Shown here in pieces: positions 12,001 through 24,000 of a stretch of 64,000 bases of DNA. The DNA comes from Ruditapes philippinarum (Eukaryota). The position numbers are program-made. Each line of letters starts with the position of its first letter. Position 1 is the first letter of the stretch. The stretch is taken from NCBI RefSeq assembly GCF_026571515.1, contig NW_026852109.1, forward strand, positions 1-64,000, read 5' to 3'.

Positions 12001-15000
12001 TTATAGGCATATCTATGAATATGAGGATAAGGCCTACTGGTTTCCTAGCACTTTCCGTCCCTAGCAGTTTTCCGGCCGTTTATCATTTTTGTCCAGAACA
12101 GTCAATTTTTACCAGTAAGGCATCCACATTACTTCATCAATCAGAGAGAAATTTGTTCTCTATGCTAAACAGCATTTGAAATAGTACAACAATTTATATG
12201 TTTTGAAGTTTTGCCTCTTATTAAAAGTTACGTAAGAGAACTTGCGACTTTCAAAAGTAAGCAACACCTGGGGAATTTTAGCTTGAATATCCATGCACAA
12301 TAACTCAGACCCCATTTTAGGTAAATCAATACTTCGGAAAATATTTTTGCAGACGACACGGAAAAGGTTGGGAATCTCTGTTTGTCTGATAAAACCATTT
12401 TAACATTGCTTCTTGGTACTGAATTATATTGAAAATAAAACAGGTCCAGAAAAATGTTATGAATTTTTGAAAAAGGTGAGAAAAAGGGTGTTACATTCCA
12501 GGCCTATATTCAAATTAAAAAATAAAATGAAAGTGCAACATAAACACATGGCAATGCTGGACAGGTACCTAACTTTGTCCTGTCAAAGTTTTGTATCCCT
12601 CCGTAGACTGTTTTTTATTTCATTTGTTAAAAAGTGCGATTTGTGGCCGGAAACTGCTAGGAAACCAGTATGTTACTTATTTTTCTATAAAGAAAACTTT
12701 ATGAATACAAATAACTATACCTTGGACCTTTTGAGACAAAAGAAAATAGTAATGCATCCAACTCTCCATTTGGAGAAATCAAATGTATGTTGTCACCTTC
12801 AGCTGTCAACATAGAAATCACTATATAAGTATATTGTCCATTTGAATTTCTTATTGGCTGGGTTGCATAGGTGCAAACCGGAGTTAAAATATGGTGAATG
12901 TCAGGTGGCGGGCCGTGAAAAAATGTTCAAAACGGTTTTTTTTCTCAGCAGCTACTTATTACAGCTTCTCTTGTTATTTGTATACAGCATTAACACATGG
13001 TCCCATACAGTGGGATTCGATTTAAGATCTGTAACTCATCCACTTCCTGTTTACCGACTTAGTTAAATTTTTTGACATTGATGGTCAATGGTAGGAATTT
13101 TTTGTAACATTTTTCTAAGCAACTACTTATTCTTGATATTTGGTATAGAGCATTAACACATGGTCCTATACTGTTGAATTCGATTTTAGGTTTTTCGCTC
13201 ATACATTTCCTGGTTACAAACTTAGTTGAATTTTTGACATTAATAAGGGTCAATGGTTGGAAATTTTCGTAACAGTTTTCTCAGTAACTACTTAACATTT
13301 GGTATACAGCATTAACACATGGTCCCATACTTAGGGATTCAATATAAGGTCTGTCGCTTATTCAGTAACTGTTTACCGACTTAGTTAAATTTTTGACATT
13401 AATGGTCAATGGTAAGAAATTTTCACAGCCTCATGATATTTGGTATACAAATGCACCCCGACAATTTCTGTCTTTGACCTTTTTTTAAAAATAAAATCTT
13501 GTAACCCACCCTGGCATGAAATTAAATGTTCTGAGGAAACAAGCACCAGTTTAGAATGTATTAACAATTCACTATTCTAGGTGTTTCTAACAAACTATCA
13601 CAATTCCAACCAAGAGAAACGTCTACAATGTGGAGATGAGTTTTCCATATTTGACAGATCATTTAAGATAGTGTGTTATAACATAAATGTAAGTTGAAAT
13701 TTTATTATGAGATTTTGATGAGGCAAAAACTAGTTTTAAGATTATATTTTTAACATGAGGCACATTGGCATGAACATTGATTCCTTCACAGTATGTAAAT
13801 ACTTATCAAACAGCAAGCATCAGAATTAAGTACCTTATAGTTTCTTGGAATTTGTCGGCATCACGGTTGCAGAGGTCTGATCAAATGTATTGTTAAACAT
13901 TATCACTTGATAACCAGTTTACACTTTCTGCTCAATATCTTCAAATAACTTTATAAATCCAAACAAGCTTGGTATGTAGCAAGCCTAGACTATAGCATAG
14001 CTTTTTAATTGTATTAGCAGAATGTTGGTTTAAATCCTATATGTATATTTTCATGCTGTTTATGTATATCCAGGACTTAAAAGCTGTGCCATTTACTAAT
14101 GAAGTGACTGTTGGTGGTGTTTCCTCAGAAGAAGGTACGTCCTGTATGTTCTAAATAAGCGTTATTTTGGGCTGGTAAAATGAAGCAATCGCTAATTATT
14201 TAAAGTCTTGCAATTAACAACAATTGTGATTGTTCAATGCTTTAGTGTGACATACCAGTATTTTAATCCTGATACCCCCCTTATGATGATAAATGTTAAA
14301 AAAGTAGCTACCTTTACAAATTTTGTCTCAGAAAATATATGCCTCTGCCCAGATTTGAGCTTGCTACATTCTTATCATCAGTCCTATAATCAACTGTGTC
14401 CACAACTGACATTCTTAATTCTTTGTGTGTCCTCAGTTGATAATGAGTGTGTCCTGATTTGAAGCTTTATTGTTCTCACCCTTGTGTATTTTCTATTTCA
14501 GAGGTTGATAGTGATTTTGTTCCTACCCAGAAGGAAAATTTGCAGTTTGGGGAAATAGGTGAGTAGTTCTAGAGAAGTATGTTACCTATGAAAAAAGAAG
14601 CCCTGATGTTGCCGAGTGTTAAACAATGGAGCTCCCTGTATAAATTATAAATGTATTGATATGACATGGCCAGGACTTGAACTTCAGACTGTATGCACTA
14701 ACTCACAGCTGACACTATGTCACTTAGCTGTATATGCTGTCCTCCATTAGAAGTGAGTATTGCTTCAATTGTGATTCAGAACATTTTTAGGGGTCCCTGT
14801 GGTTAAGTTTTTGCGTGCAAGCTGGTATCTCCATAACTACTGAAGGGAATGGATTGAAACTTCACACCTTGTTCTCTGTGATTATCTAATATGATTTGCT
14901 TAAATCCCATAACTTTGATTTGCATTTTTGCATAATTTTGCCCCTTTTTCGACTTAGAAATTCTTGGTTAAGATTTTGCGTGCAAGCTGGTATCTCCATA

Positions 15001-21000: not shown

Positions 21001-24000
21001 CCTCATTTTGAACCTTTATTTCACTCACCCTTGTGTATTTTCTATTTCAGAGGTTGATAGTGATTTTGTTCCTACCCAGAAGGAAAATTTGCAGTTTGAG
21101 GAAATAGGTGAGTAGTTCTAGAGAAGTATGTTACCTATGAAATTGGAAGCCCTGATTTTGCTGAGTGTTAAACACAGGAGCTCTCTGTATAAATTATAAA
21201 TGTATTGATATGACATGGCCAGGACTTGAACTTCAGACTGTATGCACTAACTCACAGCTGACACTATGTCACTTAGCTGTATAGGCTGTCCTCCATTAGA
21301 GGGGAGTATTTCCTCCTCAATTGTGATTCAGTATGTTTTTGATTAGTTGAAATTAGGATGATTTAGTTTCCCCCAATTTATAGTGGGTGTGTCCTCAGTT
21401 GGAGTTGATTATGCCAAGTTTTTACACATTTGGATTTGATAAAATGCTGTTTCCCCACCTGGAAATGTGTGTTGCCTCAATTTTCAGTTGTATTTGGGGA
21501 AGGCTATTTTCTTAAGCCATTTCCTTGGTTTTTTTTTTTTTGGCTCTAAGCAGAACAAACCTTGATCATCTACTGGCTGCTGTTTAGCTACTCCACTTGA
21601 TTGACATTTCTTGGTGGAGGTCAAATTTTGTCTCAAAGAATATATGCCTCTGTCTAGATTTGAACTTAGTACATTGACATTCATTATGTTGAGTGTGTCC
21701 TCAGTTGATAATGAGTGTGTCCTCATTTTGAACCTTTATTTCACTCACCCTTGTGTATTTTCTATTTCAGAGGTTGATAGTGATTTTGTTCCTACCCAGA
21801 AGGAAAATTTGCAGTTTGAGGAAATAGGTAAGTAGTTCTAGAGAAATATATGTTACCTATGGAAAAAGTAGCTGCATGTCTTGTAAATCACATATAAATT
21901 GCACAAGATAGCTGAGGCGATACAAAGGATTAAGAGAAAAATTTGAAAAAGTTAATGCGAGTACTTACTTTTTAAAAGCATTTTGTTAGAACTTTGCTTT
22001 TTCTTTACGGCTTAAGTTTGCAGTTGAAGAAGAAAGCAAATCACACACAGAATGTGATCATTATGTTTGTAGGGCTAAACAAGAATACAGTCAGGATACA
22101 TACATAGTGTTAAGTAATGTTCTCAGCCCAAATTTGGGATCCATCAACCTTGCCTACAATTGACATTCATTATGCTGGGTTTGTCCTCAGTTGTAAATGT
22201 GTGTGTCCTCATTATGATTAAATAATGTAACACCATTGTATATTTTCTATTTCAGAGGTTGACAGTGATTGTTTTTCTACTCAAAAGGAAAATTTGGTCT
22301 CCCAGGAAATAGGTTAGTAGGCGAAAAGCCAAACATTGATAAAAAGTGGCTGCAGTTCTTGTTATGCTATGGGTTTTTAAAGTTCTGTATGTAATTTGCT
22401 CTGGACAGCTGAGCTGGTGTGTAAGATTAAGCAACTATAATTCAAAGAAAGAAATTTCTCACAATACAAATACATGTACTTTTTTTAGCATTGTATAAGA
22501 CTTTGGGTTCTTCCATATTGCATATGTGCTTAATTGCTGAGAGGGAAAACATCAGCTTGTAATTGTAATGTTTAAAGAGATAAACAAGAAAACATTGTGA
22601 CAGCATGCATTGTTTTTAGTAAAGTCCTCTCCCCAGATTCAAACTCACTACCTTCCGATCATCAGTCCCATGCTTTATTATCCTGTGTGCCTCTTTTTAT
22701 ATGCCTGAAAGAAATGTAGGGCATATTATTTATATTATACCCCTTTGGCTTTCGTCTGTCTAATAGCAATTTGGTTTCCGCAGCATAATTTAAGTTACAT
22801 TTGGCCCACAGTCTTTAAACTTCATAGGATGATTGATCTTATTGAGTAGAAGACCCCTATCGATTTTGGGGTTAAAAGGTAAGGAAACAATTACCTTAAG
22901 ACTGAAAATGGTTTATGCTTAATAACATAAGTTTTAATCAACCTACAGCTTTCTAACGTCGTAGGATACTTAGCCATATTCAATATATGACCCCTATTGA
23001 TTTTGAGGTCAAATGTCAGGGTCACAATGTCTCTTAGAATTTTGGTTTCCAGAGTATAACAGTACTATTTGTCCGACAGTCTTCAAAGGTCATAGGATGA
23101 TTGCCTATATTGAATAAAATAGTCGTATCTATTTTGGGGTAACTTCAGTCAAATGACCTTAACAGAAAACGGTTTCCGCTCAATAACTTCAGTATTATTC
23201 AACCTACAACTGTCAAACTTCATAGGATACGTTTTCCAAATGAGTTCATAATATGGTATTCATATGAGATATTCATATGTCACACAAATGCTTAAACCTT
23301 ACAAAGAAAAATTTTTTTGGGGGCATATAATGCTCCACCTAGCATTGCTCTTGTTATCATTGTGTTAGATTTCGGAGTCTTCCTTATTGTTGATGTTTTC
23401 AGTTTCAGAGATAGGCAAAACCACGCAGAATGTGAACGTTATGTTTGTAGGGATGAACAAGAATACAGTAAGTATATATAGTTTTAATAATGTCTTAAAC
23501 AAATGTTACTTTGATGATGTCATGATTTTTTCCAAATTTTCTTACCACCAGACATTCTTAGGTAGTGGTCTACAAAAATGTGATTGTTAATGATTAGGAA
23601 AGGTTGACTGGTCATTGTGTGTTTTAATGGATATATTTTCTTGATAATTAACATTATTAGACTCCAAATATTTTGTTACAATTTCTGCCTTTTCTTCTGC
23701 AGGGATTTTTAAAGTTATTTCCAGACATGGTATTGACAAATGATGTGAAGGAAGCTCAAGTGATAATTGCACCATCAGGTATATATTGCATATTTGTTTT
23801 TTAAAAAGGTGACGTCAATAATTGGCGTCTTCCGGATTGCCATTTTCTAGGGGTGAAATAGATTCAATCGTTATTGTGTATCAACAATCTTTATAATTGA
23901 TTTGATATTTCAATATCGATTCCATTTTTTAAACATTGGGTGTCGAATGCCAACAGTTTTCAAACAATTTTTCCAAACGGAAATCAAATCCAAATTATCT

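What the first reader, a model, noticed from the sequence alone, without database searches (positions are those of the whole stretch)
14320..22312. Satellite that amplifies a whole exon: 11 copies of a symmetric 57-nt exon
Seen: each ~740-bp unit holds one intact phase-1/1 exon with strong splice sites and no stop or indel, while intron parts carry several indels (e.g. a ~160-bp deletion in the 592-bp unit). Inference: any number of copies can be gained, lost or skipped in frame, giving a tunable acidic linker of up to 209 aa between SET and BRCT. Most repeats contain a TQ motif (ATM/ATR-type S/T-Q site), reminiscent of repeat linkers in DNA-damage mediators such as MDC1. The lack of exon lesions may simply reflect recent amplification.
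Basis: partly seen in the sequence, partly recalled or inferred. Interest (0 to 1): 0.72.

Follow-up and report, generated by a model that had tools for sequence, protein, structure and literature searches.

The report
Tandem array repeating one mini-exon
An 8-kb stretch inside a bivalve-type gene repeats a ~740-bp unit eleven times, each unit carrying a perfectly spliceable 57-base mini-exon, which shows at the DNA level how the repeat-rich protein linkers typical of this gene family can arise, though its use in mRNA is unproven.

Summary
Ten near-identical copies and one older copy of a 57-nt phase 1-1 exon-like segment sit in head-to-tail units at 14318-22312. All have AG/GT, only one frame is open, and 10 of 11 carry TQ.

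Under a strict splice-site filter these are the only such segments in 128 kb of strand sequence. But the exon is no better conserved than the ~230 nt of intron after it, so its intactness mostly reflects youth and homogenisation. Only the older copy hints at frame constraint (no indel where about 6 are expected).

The host gene is not an MDC1-like mediator. It belongs to a large, often multi-copy family in fish and bivalves: a KMT5A-like SET and/or tandem BRCT, then a linker, a zinc finger and a recombinase-like C-terminal region. In 18 of 34 SET-bearing relatives an unrelated tandem repeat follows the SET domain, and annotated clam isoforms shuffle repeat units. So a coding cassette-exon linker is the best reading.

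Against it:
- There is no transcript evidence.
- Annotated BRCT relatives start downstream of the array's position.
- This copy has two apparent frameshifts.

It is a new member of a known kind (coding exon-bearing tandem repeats such as LPA KIV-2).

The parts
6191..6280 (+). First coding exon of the SET-side gene, starting at an ATG
   Evidence: tblastn: residues 1-30 of the Mercenaria protein P0013 match here, 47% identity, E 0.007.
6589..6749 (+). SET domain exon A. It carries an apparent 1-nt frameshift in a T9 run (6717-6725) that brings a stop after two more codons.
   Evidence: P0013 residues 30-76 match at 64% identity. Pfam SET is weak, E 0.038. The homologue's next 8 residues are readable only in the neighbouring frame (sequence, compared with P0013).
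7590..7776 (+). SET domain exon B (C-terminal half). It ends in phase 0 at a gtaagc donor.
   Evidence: Pfam SET 3.8e-10. Best PDB hit KMT5A/SETD8, 6.6e-8. 867 relatives at E<=1e-3. Sequence.
14074..14134 (+). 61-nt exon candidate just before the array. It starts in phase 0 and ends in phase 1.
Evidence: Sequence and frame.
14318..22312 (+). Tandem array of 11 units. The 57-nt exon copies lie at 14502-14558, 15987-16043, 16741-16797, 17474-17530, 18207-18263, 18962-19018, 19713-19769, 20305-20361, 21051-21107, 21771-21827 and 22256-22312.
14794..15550 (.). Insertion in unit 1, holding 3 copies of a 166-bp minisatellite (14800-15304)
   Evidence: TRF. It is absent from the other units in the unit alignment.
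22021..22086 (+). Decaying copy of the first BRCT exon inside the intron of unit 10. AG and GT are kept and there is one extra base, so it is 66 nt and open in phase 1-1.
   Evidence: Three-way alignment A6. It lies within the open frame 21990-22160.
22535..22615 (+). Second, dead copy of the first BRCT exon, after exon copy 11. Both splice sites are lost.
   Evidence: Alignment A6.
23403..23467 (+). First BRCT exon. It enters in phase 1. A second in-frame acceptor lies at 23409.
   Evidence: Sequence. Its frame matches the start of P0171 and P0172.
23703..23778 (+). BRCT1 exon
   Evidence: 40% identity to P0171 residues 29-58 and to P0172 residues 10-36.
25044..25168 (+). BRCT1 C-terminal exon
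   Evidence: Matches P0171 residues 53-106 (E 4.9e-8). That part of P0171/P0172 scores as Pfam BRCT_2 (E 0.0032 and 1.2e-6).
25673..25801 (+). Inter-BRCT / BRCT2 exon (boundaries not fixed)
   Evidence: 43% identity to P0171 residues 89-132, E 9e-7.
26312..26410 (+). BRCT2 exon
   Evidence: 43% identity to P0172 residues 114-160, E 0.001.
28570..30420 (+). Large exon holding the end of BRCT2, an acidic motif, a CxxC..H..H zinc finger and the recombinase-like region. It has a 1-nt frameshift at 29865-29868. Its 3' end is approximate.
   Evidence: 60-66% identity to Mya arenaria P0171 over 609 residues. The same frame switch is seen with 4 of 4 long homologues.
33367..33600 (+). Last exon (conserved C-terminal domain, then the stop)
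   Evidence: Matches the C-termini of P0138 (E 3.7e-6), P0172 and P0171.

Best explanation
This is a young, locally amplified tandem array inside a gene. It lies in the long intron between a SET-side exon (ending at 14134) and the first BRCT exon (23403). The gene belongs to a family built of a KMT5A-like SET and/or tandem BRCT, a linker, a zinc finger and a recombinase-like C-terminal region, in a bivalve-type genome.

Shown:
- An older block, [57-nt mini-exon + short intron + first BRCT exon], was duplicated. Copies 10 and 11 and the two decaying BRCT-exon copies are the traces.
- A ~740-bp unit containing the mini-exon was then amplified about nine-fold by unequal exchange.
- The exon-proximal ~290 nt are kept 93-99% alike in all units. 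The 3' half falls into two types that are 86-89% alike and recur in a multi-unit pattern.

Inferred:
- Each mini-exon has near-consensus splice sites, is symmetric in phase 1-1 and matches the phases of both flanking exons. The copies are therefore most likely spliced in as cassette exons.
- Each included copy would add a 19-residue acidic, TQ-bearing module, up to 209 residues in all, to the linker before BRCT1.
- Copy number (by DNA exchange) and inclusion (by splicing) would set the linker length without breaking the frame.

The absence of lesions is mainly due to youth and homogenisation, not to demonstrable purifying selection.
For: 1. Structure.
2. Exon-likeness beyond chance. Under a strict splice-site and open-frame filter, the 10 young copies are the only matches in the window, with 0 in the other ~120 kb of strand sequence.
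3. Phase fit. The only open frame leaves one base over at each end. The homology-defined frame of the first BRCT exon needs exactly one base from upstream. SET exon B ends in phase 0 and the 14074 exon starts in phase 0.
4. Older copy 11 against copy 10. Substitution divergence is the same in exon (12/57 = 0.21) and introns (0.19). The introns have 39 gap events in 380 aligned nt and the exon none (5.9 expected, Poisson P = 0.003, dependent on alignment parameters). pN/pS = 0.17/0.47, Fisher p = 0.10.
5. Family trait. 22 of 35 long SET-family hits carry a tandem repeat, against 0 of 35 shuffled controls. I dropped P0006 (no SET, unnamed record) and three proteins whose repeat overlaps the SET match itself (P0001, P0009, P0118). 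That leaves 18 of 34 with a repeat starting after the SET match. The units are unrelated in sequence and 8-94 aa long.
6. The closest long SET relative, Mercenaria LOC123565679 (P0013), has SET, then ~20 residues, then 4 x 45-aa acidic repeats. This is the layout proposed here. Its four annotated isoforms differ only in which repeat variants are present and by a 4-residue piece, as cassette exons would give.
7. Among the BRCT relatives, Saccostrea P0173 has acidic 45-aa repeats N-terminal of BRCT, and Pecten P0174 has ~35 10-aa repeats after BRCT.
8. Ongoing exchange: the mosaic identity matrices.
Against: - There is no transcript or protein evidence. No protein of 82-2000 aa among 5.8 billion clusters shares three 5-residue words with the exon-containing frame, and the SET exon found nothing by word search either.
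- Among the young units the exon is not better conserved than the adjacent ~230 nt of intron. Its 6 variable sites are 1 synonymous and 5 non-synonymous.
- The nearest BRCT-side relatives as annotated (Mya P0171 at 60% identity, Mercenaria P0172) have neither SET nor repeats. P0172 starts at the Met inside the exon equivalent to 23403-23467.
- 0 of 35 SET-family hits scanned have a BRCT domain, so a SET+BRCT protein is unprecedented in what I saw.
- This copy has two apparent frameshifts, in the T9 run at 6717-6725 and at 29865-29868. The motif that is YY in most relatives reads FD here.
- The exon 14074-14134 has no homologue.
Confidence: 0.5

Rival explanations
1. The array is a non-coding satellite between two genes, or in a 5' intron or upstream region. 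The SET exons would make a short SET-only protein ending just after 7776. A separate BRCT-zinc finger-recombinase-like gene would start at or near 23403. The mini-exons would then be ignored by the spliceosome or sit in a 5' UTR.
For: - Annotated Mya and Mercenaria relatives begin directly at BRCT1, and P0172 begins at the Met equivalent to the one in exon 23403-23467.
- If the donor at 7777 is not used, the SET frame stops 3 codons later. Many family hits are short SET-only models of 55-170 aa.
- No SET+BRCT protein was found among the 35 scanned.
- The exon is not more conserved than the neighbouring intron.
Against: - The splice signals are exceptionally strong and unique in the window.
- The phases fit on both sides.
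- That Met lies inside the conserved first-strand stretch, and Mya has coding residues before it, so P0172 looks like a truncated model.
- The exon length was preserved in the old copy.
- Repeat linkers are a family trait, and P0013 has the SET-then-repeats layout.
Confidence: 0.25
2. This is a dead copy. The locus is a recently pseudogenised member of a multi-copy, possibly mobile-element-derived family. The array is a neutral satellite expansion of what was once a real exon, and it has no present function.
For: - There are two frameshifts relative to all homologues compared: the T9 run in SET exon A, and 4 nt in place of one codon at 29865-29868, the latter seen with 4 of 4 long homologues.
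- The YY motif reads FD.
- The family is multi-copy at >=90% identity in several fish genomes, for example six LOC ids of one species in one cluster.
- Relatives show evidently non-functional amplifications, such as a sea-cucumber model with half a SET domain repeated 8 times.
- Substitutions in the young exon copies look neutral, 5 non-synonymous to 1 synonymous.
Against: - Apart from the two 1-nt shifts, all homology-supported exons are open, including stretches of 448 and 215 codons.
- Both shifts lie in short mononucleotide runs, where assemblies often err.
- The FD variant also occurs in the annotated Mercenaria protein P0013.
Confidence: 0.2
3. The array is an assembly artefact: a mis-expanded or mis-collapsed repeat.
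For: No call points to this. Tandem arrays are generally hard to assemble, and the two 1-nt frameshifts could hint at consensus errors.
Against: - The units are individually distinct, with private substitutions, a 160-nt deletion, a 22-nt deletion shared by units 3 and 4, a 760-nt insertion and two 3'-half types. Artefactual duplication of one unit would not produce that.
- The only N run is far away, at 43695-43858.
Confidence: 0.03

Closest known systems
LPA kringle IV type 2 (KIV-2) coding copy-number repeat
   Same: A head-to-tail genomic unit containing intron plus whole exon(s) is repeated inside a gene. Any copy number keeps the frame and changes protein length. From the abstract of PMC6314250 seen in the listing: a 5.6-kb repeat generating more than 40 protein isoforms.
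   Different: - The unit here is 0.74 kb with one 57-nt exon that encodes a 19-residue, presumably disordered acidic module, not a folded kringle encoded by two exons.
- Inclusion in mRNA and copy-number polymorphism are not shown here.
Tandem exon duplication as a general source of alternative splicing
   Same: A whole exon is duplicated locally with its splice sites. From the abstract of PMC9013439 seen in the listing.
   Different: That literature stresses pairs or clusters used in a mutually exclusive way. Here eleven symmetric copies could be used additively.
Arrays of short symmetric exons in spring or linker proteins (titin PEVK, nebulin super-repeats, 54-bp collagen exons)
   Same: Many short in-frame exons of one origin, where differential inclusion tunes the length of an extended region. 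This is recalled knowledge; no call.
   Different: Those arrays are old and diverged and their introns are unrelated. Here whole units, introns included, are still 86-99% identical, that is, at the satellite stage.
Repeat linkers of relatives in the same family
   Same: Examples are Mercenaria LOC123565679, Saccostrea LOC134260661, Pecten LOC117332456 and the fish 'uncharacterized protein LOC...' proteins. They share the domain order and carry acidic tandem repeats next to SET or BRCT. In Mercenaria the isoforms differ by repeat units.
   Different: - The repeat sequences are unrelated to the window's 19-residue module.
- Their genomic exon structure could not be inspected here.
MDC1-type DNA-damage mediator repeats / S-T-Q cluster domains
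   Same: An acidic repeat region with clustered TQ sites next to tandem BRCT. The resemblance is recalled; the motif counts are.
   Different: - The sites are TQKE, not TQXF, and no FHA domain was seen.
- The protein continues into a zinc finger and a recombinase-like region that MDC1 lacks.
- Not a member.

Membership tests
Exon-bearing coding tandem repeat (LPA KIV-2 type) | Head-to-tail genomic units that each contain intron plus complete exon(s) | tested here: met
   11 units, each with one AG...GT-bounded 57-nt segment.
Exon-bearing coding tandem repeat (LPA KIV-2 type) | The exon length and phase keep the frame for any copy number | tested here: met
   57 nt, phase 1-1, a single open frame in 11 of 11 copies, and phases that match both flanking exons.
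Exon-bearing coding tandem repeat (LPA KIV-2 type) | The repeat exons are present in mRNA and protein | not testable with these tools
   No transcript data. No protein with the motif was found in the word-index search.
Exon-bearing coding tandem repeat (LPA KIV-2 type) | Copy number varies between individuals | not testable with these tools
   Only one haplotype is available. The mosaic unit types show past unequal exchange.
S/T-Q cluster domain (definition recalled: at least 3 SQ/TQ within 100 residues) | Density of SQ/TQ sites | tested here: met
   10 of 11 modules of 19 residues carry TQ. This counts only if the exons are translated.
S/T-Q cluster domain | Phosphorylation by ATM/ATR-type kinases | not testable with these tools
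   Needs experiment.
MDC1-like mediator | TQXF motifs, an FHA domain and no other catalytic modules (features recalled) | tested here: not met
   The sites are TQKE. The gene carries SET, a zinc finger and a recombinase-like region.
KMT5A/SET8-like SET domain | A SET fold with KMT5A as the nearest relative | tested here: met
   Pfam SET 3.8e-10. The top 14 PDB hits are KMT5A/SETD8. The family profile gives 2.7e-33 to KMT5A.
KMT5A/SET8-like SET domain | An uninterrupted reading frame | tested here: not met
   A T9 run at 6717-6725 shifts the frame relative to P0013. This may be an assembly error.
Tandem BRCT | Match to BRCT profiles | tested here: inconclusive
   - The window's exons one by one give no Pfam hit at E<=10 and no PDB hit.
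- The relatives they align to do score: P0172 BRCT_2 1.2e-6; P0173 BRCT 4.4e-11 and BRCT_2 7.6e-10; P0174 BRCT and BRCT_2; P0171 0.0032, below cutoff.
- The joined domain was not searched.
Tyrosine recombinase (Crypton-like element or derivative) | A recombinase catalytic fold and the catalytic Tyr | tested here: inconclusive
   - Pfam Phage_integrase scores only E 0.0089, below cutoff, on 1 of 6 bivalve relatives, and hits 0 of 35 SET hits.
- The AlphaFold model has pLDDT 57.
- Foldseek gives 0 hits at E<=1e-3. The top, non-significant hits are XerH and type IB topoisomerases.
- The window has FD where most relatives have YY.
- The Crypton paper PMC3212892 has no occurrence of SET domain, methyltransferase or BRCT (term search of its text).

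The most novel reading that the evidence does not exclude
The SET/BRCT, zinc-finger, recombinase-like genes of fish and bivalves are an undescribed, often multi-copy (mobile or recently domesticated) family. In it, intron-plus-mini-exon satellites like this one repeatedly rebuild an acidic, often S/T-Q-bearing linker. DNA copy number and cassette splicing together would give each copy a tunable spacer, or a phospho-regulated tether, between a chromatin module and a DNA-recombinase-like module. This window would be the first look at the process caught in the act at the DNA level.
Probability: 0.2. Interest if true: 0.7.

Novelty: new member of a known kind. Interest (0 to 1): 0.45.

Why it matters
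Repeat-rich, fast-changing linkers are common in proteins, but the DNA-level step that creates them is rarely seen. Once the introns diverge, only the protein repeat remains visible.

Here whole units, introns included, are still 86-99% alike. The route is therefore readable: a block is duplicated, a unit carrying a symmetric mini-exon is amplified like a satellite, and the copies are then homogenised.

The finding also draws attention to a large gene family in fish and bivalves that is annotated only as 'uncharacterized' or 'KMT5A-like'. The family couples histone-methyltransferase-like or phosphopeptide-reader-like modules to a recombinase-like region, and more than half of the members I examined have such linkers. 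If the exons are used, the locus would be a simple natural system for studying copy-number-tunable protein length outside vertebrates.

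Tried and rejected
- Word-index protein search with the SET exon, longer proteins: no hit.
- The same search with a frame containing the repeat exon: no candidate. This is weak evidence, because this genome's own models seem absent from the collection.
- Pfam on each putative BRCT exon alone: nothing at E up to 10. PDB search with exon 25043-25168: nothing. A first attempt had the wrong frame and was corrected.
- PDB search with the family profile A2: only SET proteins among the 60 shown, so it gave no view of the C-terminal region.
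- AlphaFold of frame 29851-30495 with a 13-row alignment: pLDDT 57, pTM 0.33. Its Foldseek search gave nothing significant. I therefore call the region 'recombinase-like' only and do not file it under Crypton.
- Selection tests on the young copies were uninformative. pN/pS on the old pair was not significant.
- Sander lucioperca isoforms X1 and X2 differ only at the N-terminus, not in the repeats, so they do not help.
- No long ORF recurs in every unit on either strand, and there is no Rfam family in 13500-24000. An antisense gene or a structured RNA is therefore rejected.
- Pfam on six other frames of the window: nothing useful.
- Literature: searches for Crypton + SET domain + tyrosine recombinase, 'KMT5A-like', Crypton + BRCT and Cryptons + domestication + mollusc found no description of this family. 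The first LPA search failed on a term's syntax and was repeated.
- Considered and rejected: that the U10 copy of the BRCT exon had lost its donor. The alignment shows GT is kept.
- Not done:
  - The spliced protein was never joined, searched or folded.
  - Genome contigs (bacteria and archaea only) was not scanned, as it is irrelevant here.
  - No eukaryotic genome or transcript collection was available, so the exon structure of the relatives' repeats stayed unchecked.

Full report
WHAT IS THERE

The window is AT-rich (about 32% G+C). It is eukaryotic and intron-rich. Its closest protein relatives are from bivalve molluscs: Mya arenaria at 60% and Mercenaria, Saccostrea, Pecten, Magallana and Ostrea at 36-41%. 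I do not take it for human. Its only N run (43695-43858) is far from the finding and was left alone.

Between about 14318 and 22312 there is a head-to-tail array.
- A fuzzy search with the first copy finds ten copies of a 57-nt segment with at most 3 substitutions each. All are preceded by tttctatttcag and followed by gtgagt or gtaagt.
- An eleventh copy at 22256-22312 differs at 12 of 57 bases and has gttagt.
- Exon-to-exon distances are 1485, 754, 733, 733, 755, 751, 592, 746, 720 and 485 nt. The repeat finder gives the same spacings.
- The 592-nt unit has a deletion of about 160 nt.
- Units 3 and 4 share a 22-nt deletion.
- Unit 1 carries an insertion of about 760 nt with a 166-bp x3 minisatellite.

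In all 11 copies only one frame is open, the one that takes one base from the exon before and gives one base to the exon after. The 18 whole codons read VDSDFVPTQKENLQF[E/G]EI in most copies. TQ is present in 10 of 11, and there are 4-5 acidic residues to 1 basic.

IS IT MORE THAN CHANCE?

The repeat itself obviously is. For the exon-likeness I scanned both strands of the window with a strict filter: at least 10 of 12 pyrimidines plus YAG, then 30-200 nt with an open frame, then AG followed by GTRAGT. The ten young copies are the only matches. None occurs in the remaining ~120 kb of strand sequence.

The founding unit therefore carried an unusually good exon signal. The unit has no other copy in the window. 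No ORF of 60 codons or more recurs per unit on either strand, and no Rfam family matches.

IS THE EXON PROTECTED?

Among units 1-9:

| Region | Variable sites | pi |
|---|---|---|
| Exon | 6 of 57 | 0.028 |
| Intron | 149 of 690 | 0.079 |

Fisher p = 0.06. But the next three 57-nt windows of intron are just as quiet, with 7, 4 and 5 variable sites and no indel. 8% of all 57-column windows have pi no higher than the exon's. The six exon variants are one synonymous and five non-synonymous.

The exon plus ~170 nt after it is 93-99% identical between all units. The 3' part of the units falls into two types, {1,5,7} against the rest, at 86-89% between types. There are closer pairs within types: 3/4 at 98% and 6/8 at 97%. 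That is the signature of repeated unequal exchange and homogenisation centred on the exon-proximal part. It is not exon-specific selection.

The only internal hint of constraint comes from the old copy 11. Against copy 10, substitutions are as frequent in the exon (0.21) as in the flanking introns (0.19). The introns show 39 gap events in 380 aligned nt and the exon none. About 5.9 would be expected, P about 0.003, and the count depends on the alignment parameters. pN/pS is 0.17/0.47, with p = 0.10.

HISTORY

The introns after copies 10 and 11 are of a different, older kind. Each contains a copy of the first BRCT exon (alignment A6).
- The one after copy 11 has lost both splice sites.
- The one after copy 10 (22021-22086) keeps AG and GT, has one extra base, and is thereby open in phase 1-1.

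So a block of [mini-exon, short intron, first BRCT exon] was duplicated first. The 740-bp unit was amplified later. Its 3' boundary lies about 45 nt into the intron of unit 10.

THE HOST GENE

Upstream, 7590-7776 is the C-terminal half of a SET domain: Pfam 3.8e-10, with the nearest solved structures all KMT5A/SETD8. A full scan of 1.84 billion representatives found 867 relatives at E<=1e-3.

The long relatives share one domain order:
- an N-terminal KMT5A-like SET
- a linker
- an acidic motif
- a CxxC..H..H zinc finger
- a long conserved region ending in a GKKGRKV...LRKQ.AT...GHD...HR..YRLP stretch
- a conserved C-terminal domain

Three window frames align collinearly with all of this: 28551-29894, 29851-30495 and 33319-33600. 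The start of the gene (6191-6280) and SET exon A (6589-6749) match the Mercenaria protein P0013.

The names given by the sources are 'uncharacterized protein LOC...', 'KMT5A-like', 'PR-Set7-like' and even 'midasin-like'. Several fish genomes hold many loci at 90% identity or more, which is how mobile or recently expanded families look.

I call the C-terminal region recombinase-like only. Pfam Phage_integrase is below cutoff in 1 of 6 bivalve relatives. The structure model is poor. The fold search has no significant hit, although XerH and type IB topoisomerases lead the list. I found no paper describing the family. The Crypton survey PMC3212892, searched by terms, has no occurrence of SET domain, methyltransferase or BRCT.

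BRCT

Taken one by one, the window's exons downstream of the array hit nothing in Pfam or PDB. They align at 40-48% identity to the N-terminal parts of Mya P0171 and Mercenaria P0172.
- P0172 scores BRCT_2 (1.2e-6).
- Saccostrea P0173 and Pecten P0174 score both BRCT and BRCT_2.
- P0171 is below cutoff.

A direct test of the assembled domain is therefore missing.

DO THE REPEATS CODE?

There is no direct evidence. No protein in the word-indexed collection carries the module. That collection also lacks this locus's SET exon, so the genome's own models are probably not in it.

The comparative evidence is favourable.
- A fixed-period scan found tandem repeats in 22 of 35 long SET-family hits and in 0 of 35 shuffled versions.
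- I dropped P0006, an unnamed record without SET that is evidently unrelated. I also dropped three proteins in which the repeat overlaps the SET match (P0001, P0009, P0118). That leaves 18 of 34 with a repeat that begins after SET.
- The units are unrelated between proteins (examples).
- Of the 8 relatives found with the large exon, 3 have repeats. These include 45-aa acidic repeats before BRCT in Saccostrea and about 35 10-aa repeats after BRCT in Pecten.
- The Mercenaria gene closest on the SET side has SET, about 20 residues, then four 45-aa acidic repeats. Its four annotated isoforms differ only in which repeat variants they contain and by a 4-residue piece. Cassette exons with alternative splice sites would give exactly that.
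- High isoform numbers are annotated for several fish loci (X21/X22, X8). In Sander, however, the two isoforms differ only at the N-terminus.

These are predicted models. I could not see their RNA support or their exon maps.

AGAINST A WORKING LINKER

1. The annotated Mya and Mercenaria BRCT proteins have no SET and no repeats. P0172 starts at the Met inside the exon equivalent to 23403-23467.
2. None of the 35 SET-family hits has BRCT, so SET+BRCT in one protein would be new.
3. This copy has two 1-nt frameshifts relative to every homologue compared. One is in a T9 run in SET exon A (with P0013). The other is at 29865-29868, seen with 4 of 4 long homologues. Both sit in mononucleotide runs and may be assembly errors. 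If they are real, the locus is a very young pseudogene.
4. The YY of the conserved HR..YRLP motif is FD here, as it is in P0013.

VERDICT

The most likely account (about 0.5) is a young exon-bearing tandem array whose mini-exons act as cassette exons and build an acidic, TQ-rich linker before BRCT1. The gene belongs to a family in which such linkers are the rule.

The rivals are:
- a non-coding array between two genes (0.25)
- a dead copy (0.2; this partly overlaps with the other accounts)
- an assembly artefact (0.03)

In kind, this is a new member of the known class of coding, exon-bearing tandem repeats. LPA KIV-2 is the textbook case (abstract of PMC6314250). Tandem exon duplication in general is covered in the abstract of PMC9013439. 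It is not an MDC1 relative.

What is worth following up is the family-wide habit of rebuilding the linker, and the family itself, which seems undescribed.

Noticed in passing
window 6717-6725 and 29865-29868: There are two 1-nt frameshifts relative to all homologues compared. One is a T9 run in SET exon A. The other is four bases where relatives have one codon, in the large exon. They are either assembly errors or signs of a young pseudogene.
   Followed up: partly
window 22021-22086: A copy of the first BRCT exon sits inside the intron of unit 10. It keeps AG and GT and has gained one base, which makes it a 66-nt segment open in phase 1-1. It could act as a further cassette exon.
   Followed up: partly
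window 28570-33600: The gene continues into a zinc finger, a ~500-residue conserved region with a recombinase-like motif (YY replaced by FD here) and a conserved C-terminal domain. All of this is shared with 'uncharacterized' proteins of bivalves and many fish, where it is multi-copy. I found no paper on this family.
   Followed up: partly
protein P0001 (Holothuria leucospilota, named 'set-1'): This gene model has the C-terminal half of the SET domain repeated 8 times with a 94-residue period. In this family, exon-scale tandem amplification also hits the catalytic domain.
   Followed up: no
window 12965-13424 and 14800-15304: Two minisatellites of 159-bp and 166-bp period (2.9 and 3.0 copies) have loosely similar units. 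The second lies within an insertion in unit 1. They recall the ~160-bp repeat-bearing mobile elements of bivalves; that is recalled knowledge and was not tested.
   Followed up: no
window 22700-23340: A block with internal ~130-190-bp repeats sits between the last array unit and the first BRCT exon. Similar sequence occurs at about 26900-28000, so it is probably a repeat-bearing element inserted in the intron.
   Followed up: no
window 54259-54558 and 56274-56573 (minus strand): Two nearly identical 99-codon open frames lie 2015 bp apart, so there is a tandem duplication of about 2 kb. Pfam gives nothing above noise.
   Followed up: partly
window 44001-46000: GC skew (-0.24) and AT skew (-0.23) are strong here. 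There is a low-complexity 149-codon frame at 44498-44947, next to the N run at 43695-43858.
   Followed up: no
window 23403 / 23409: There are two in-frame acceptor sites 6 nt apart at the start of the first BRCT exon.
   Followed up: no
window 24700-24751: (AT)26 microsatellite in the intron after the second BRCT exon.
   Followed up: no
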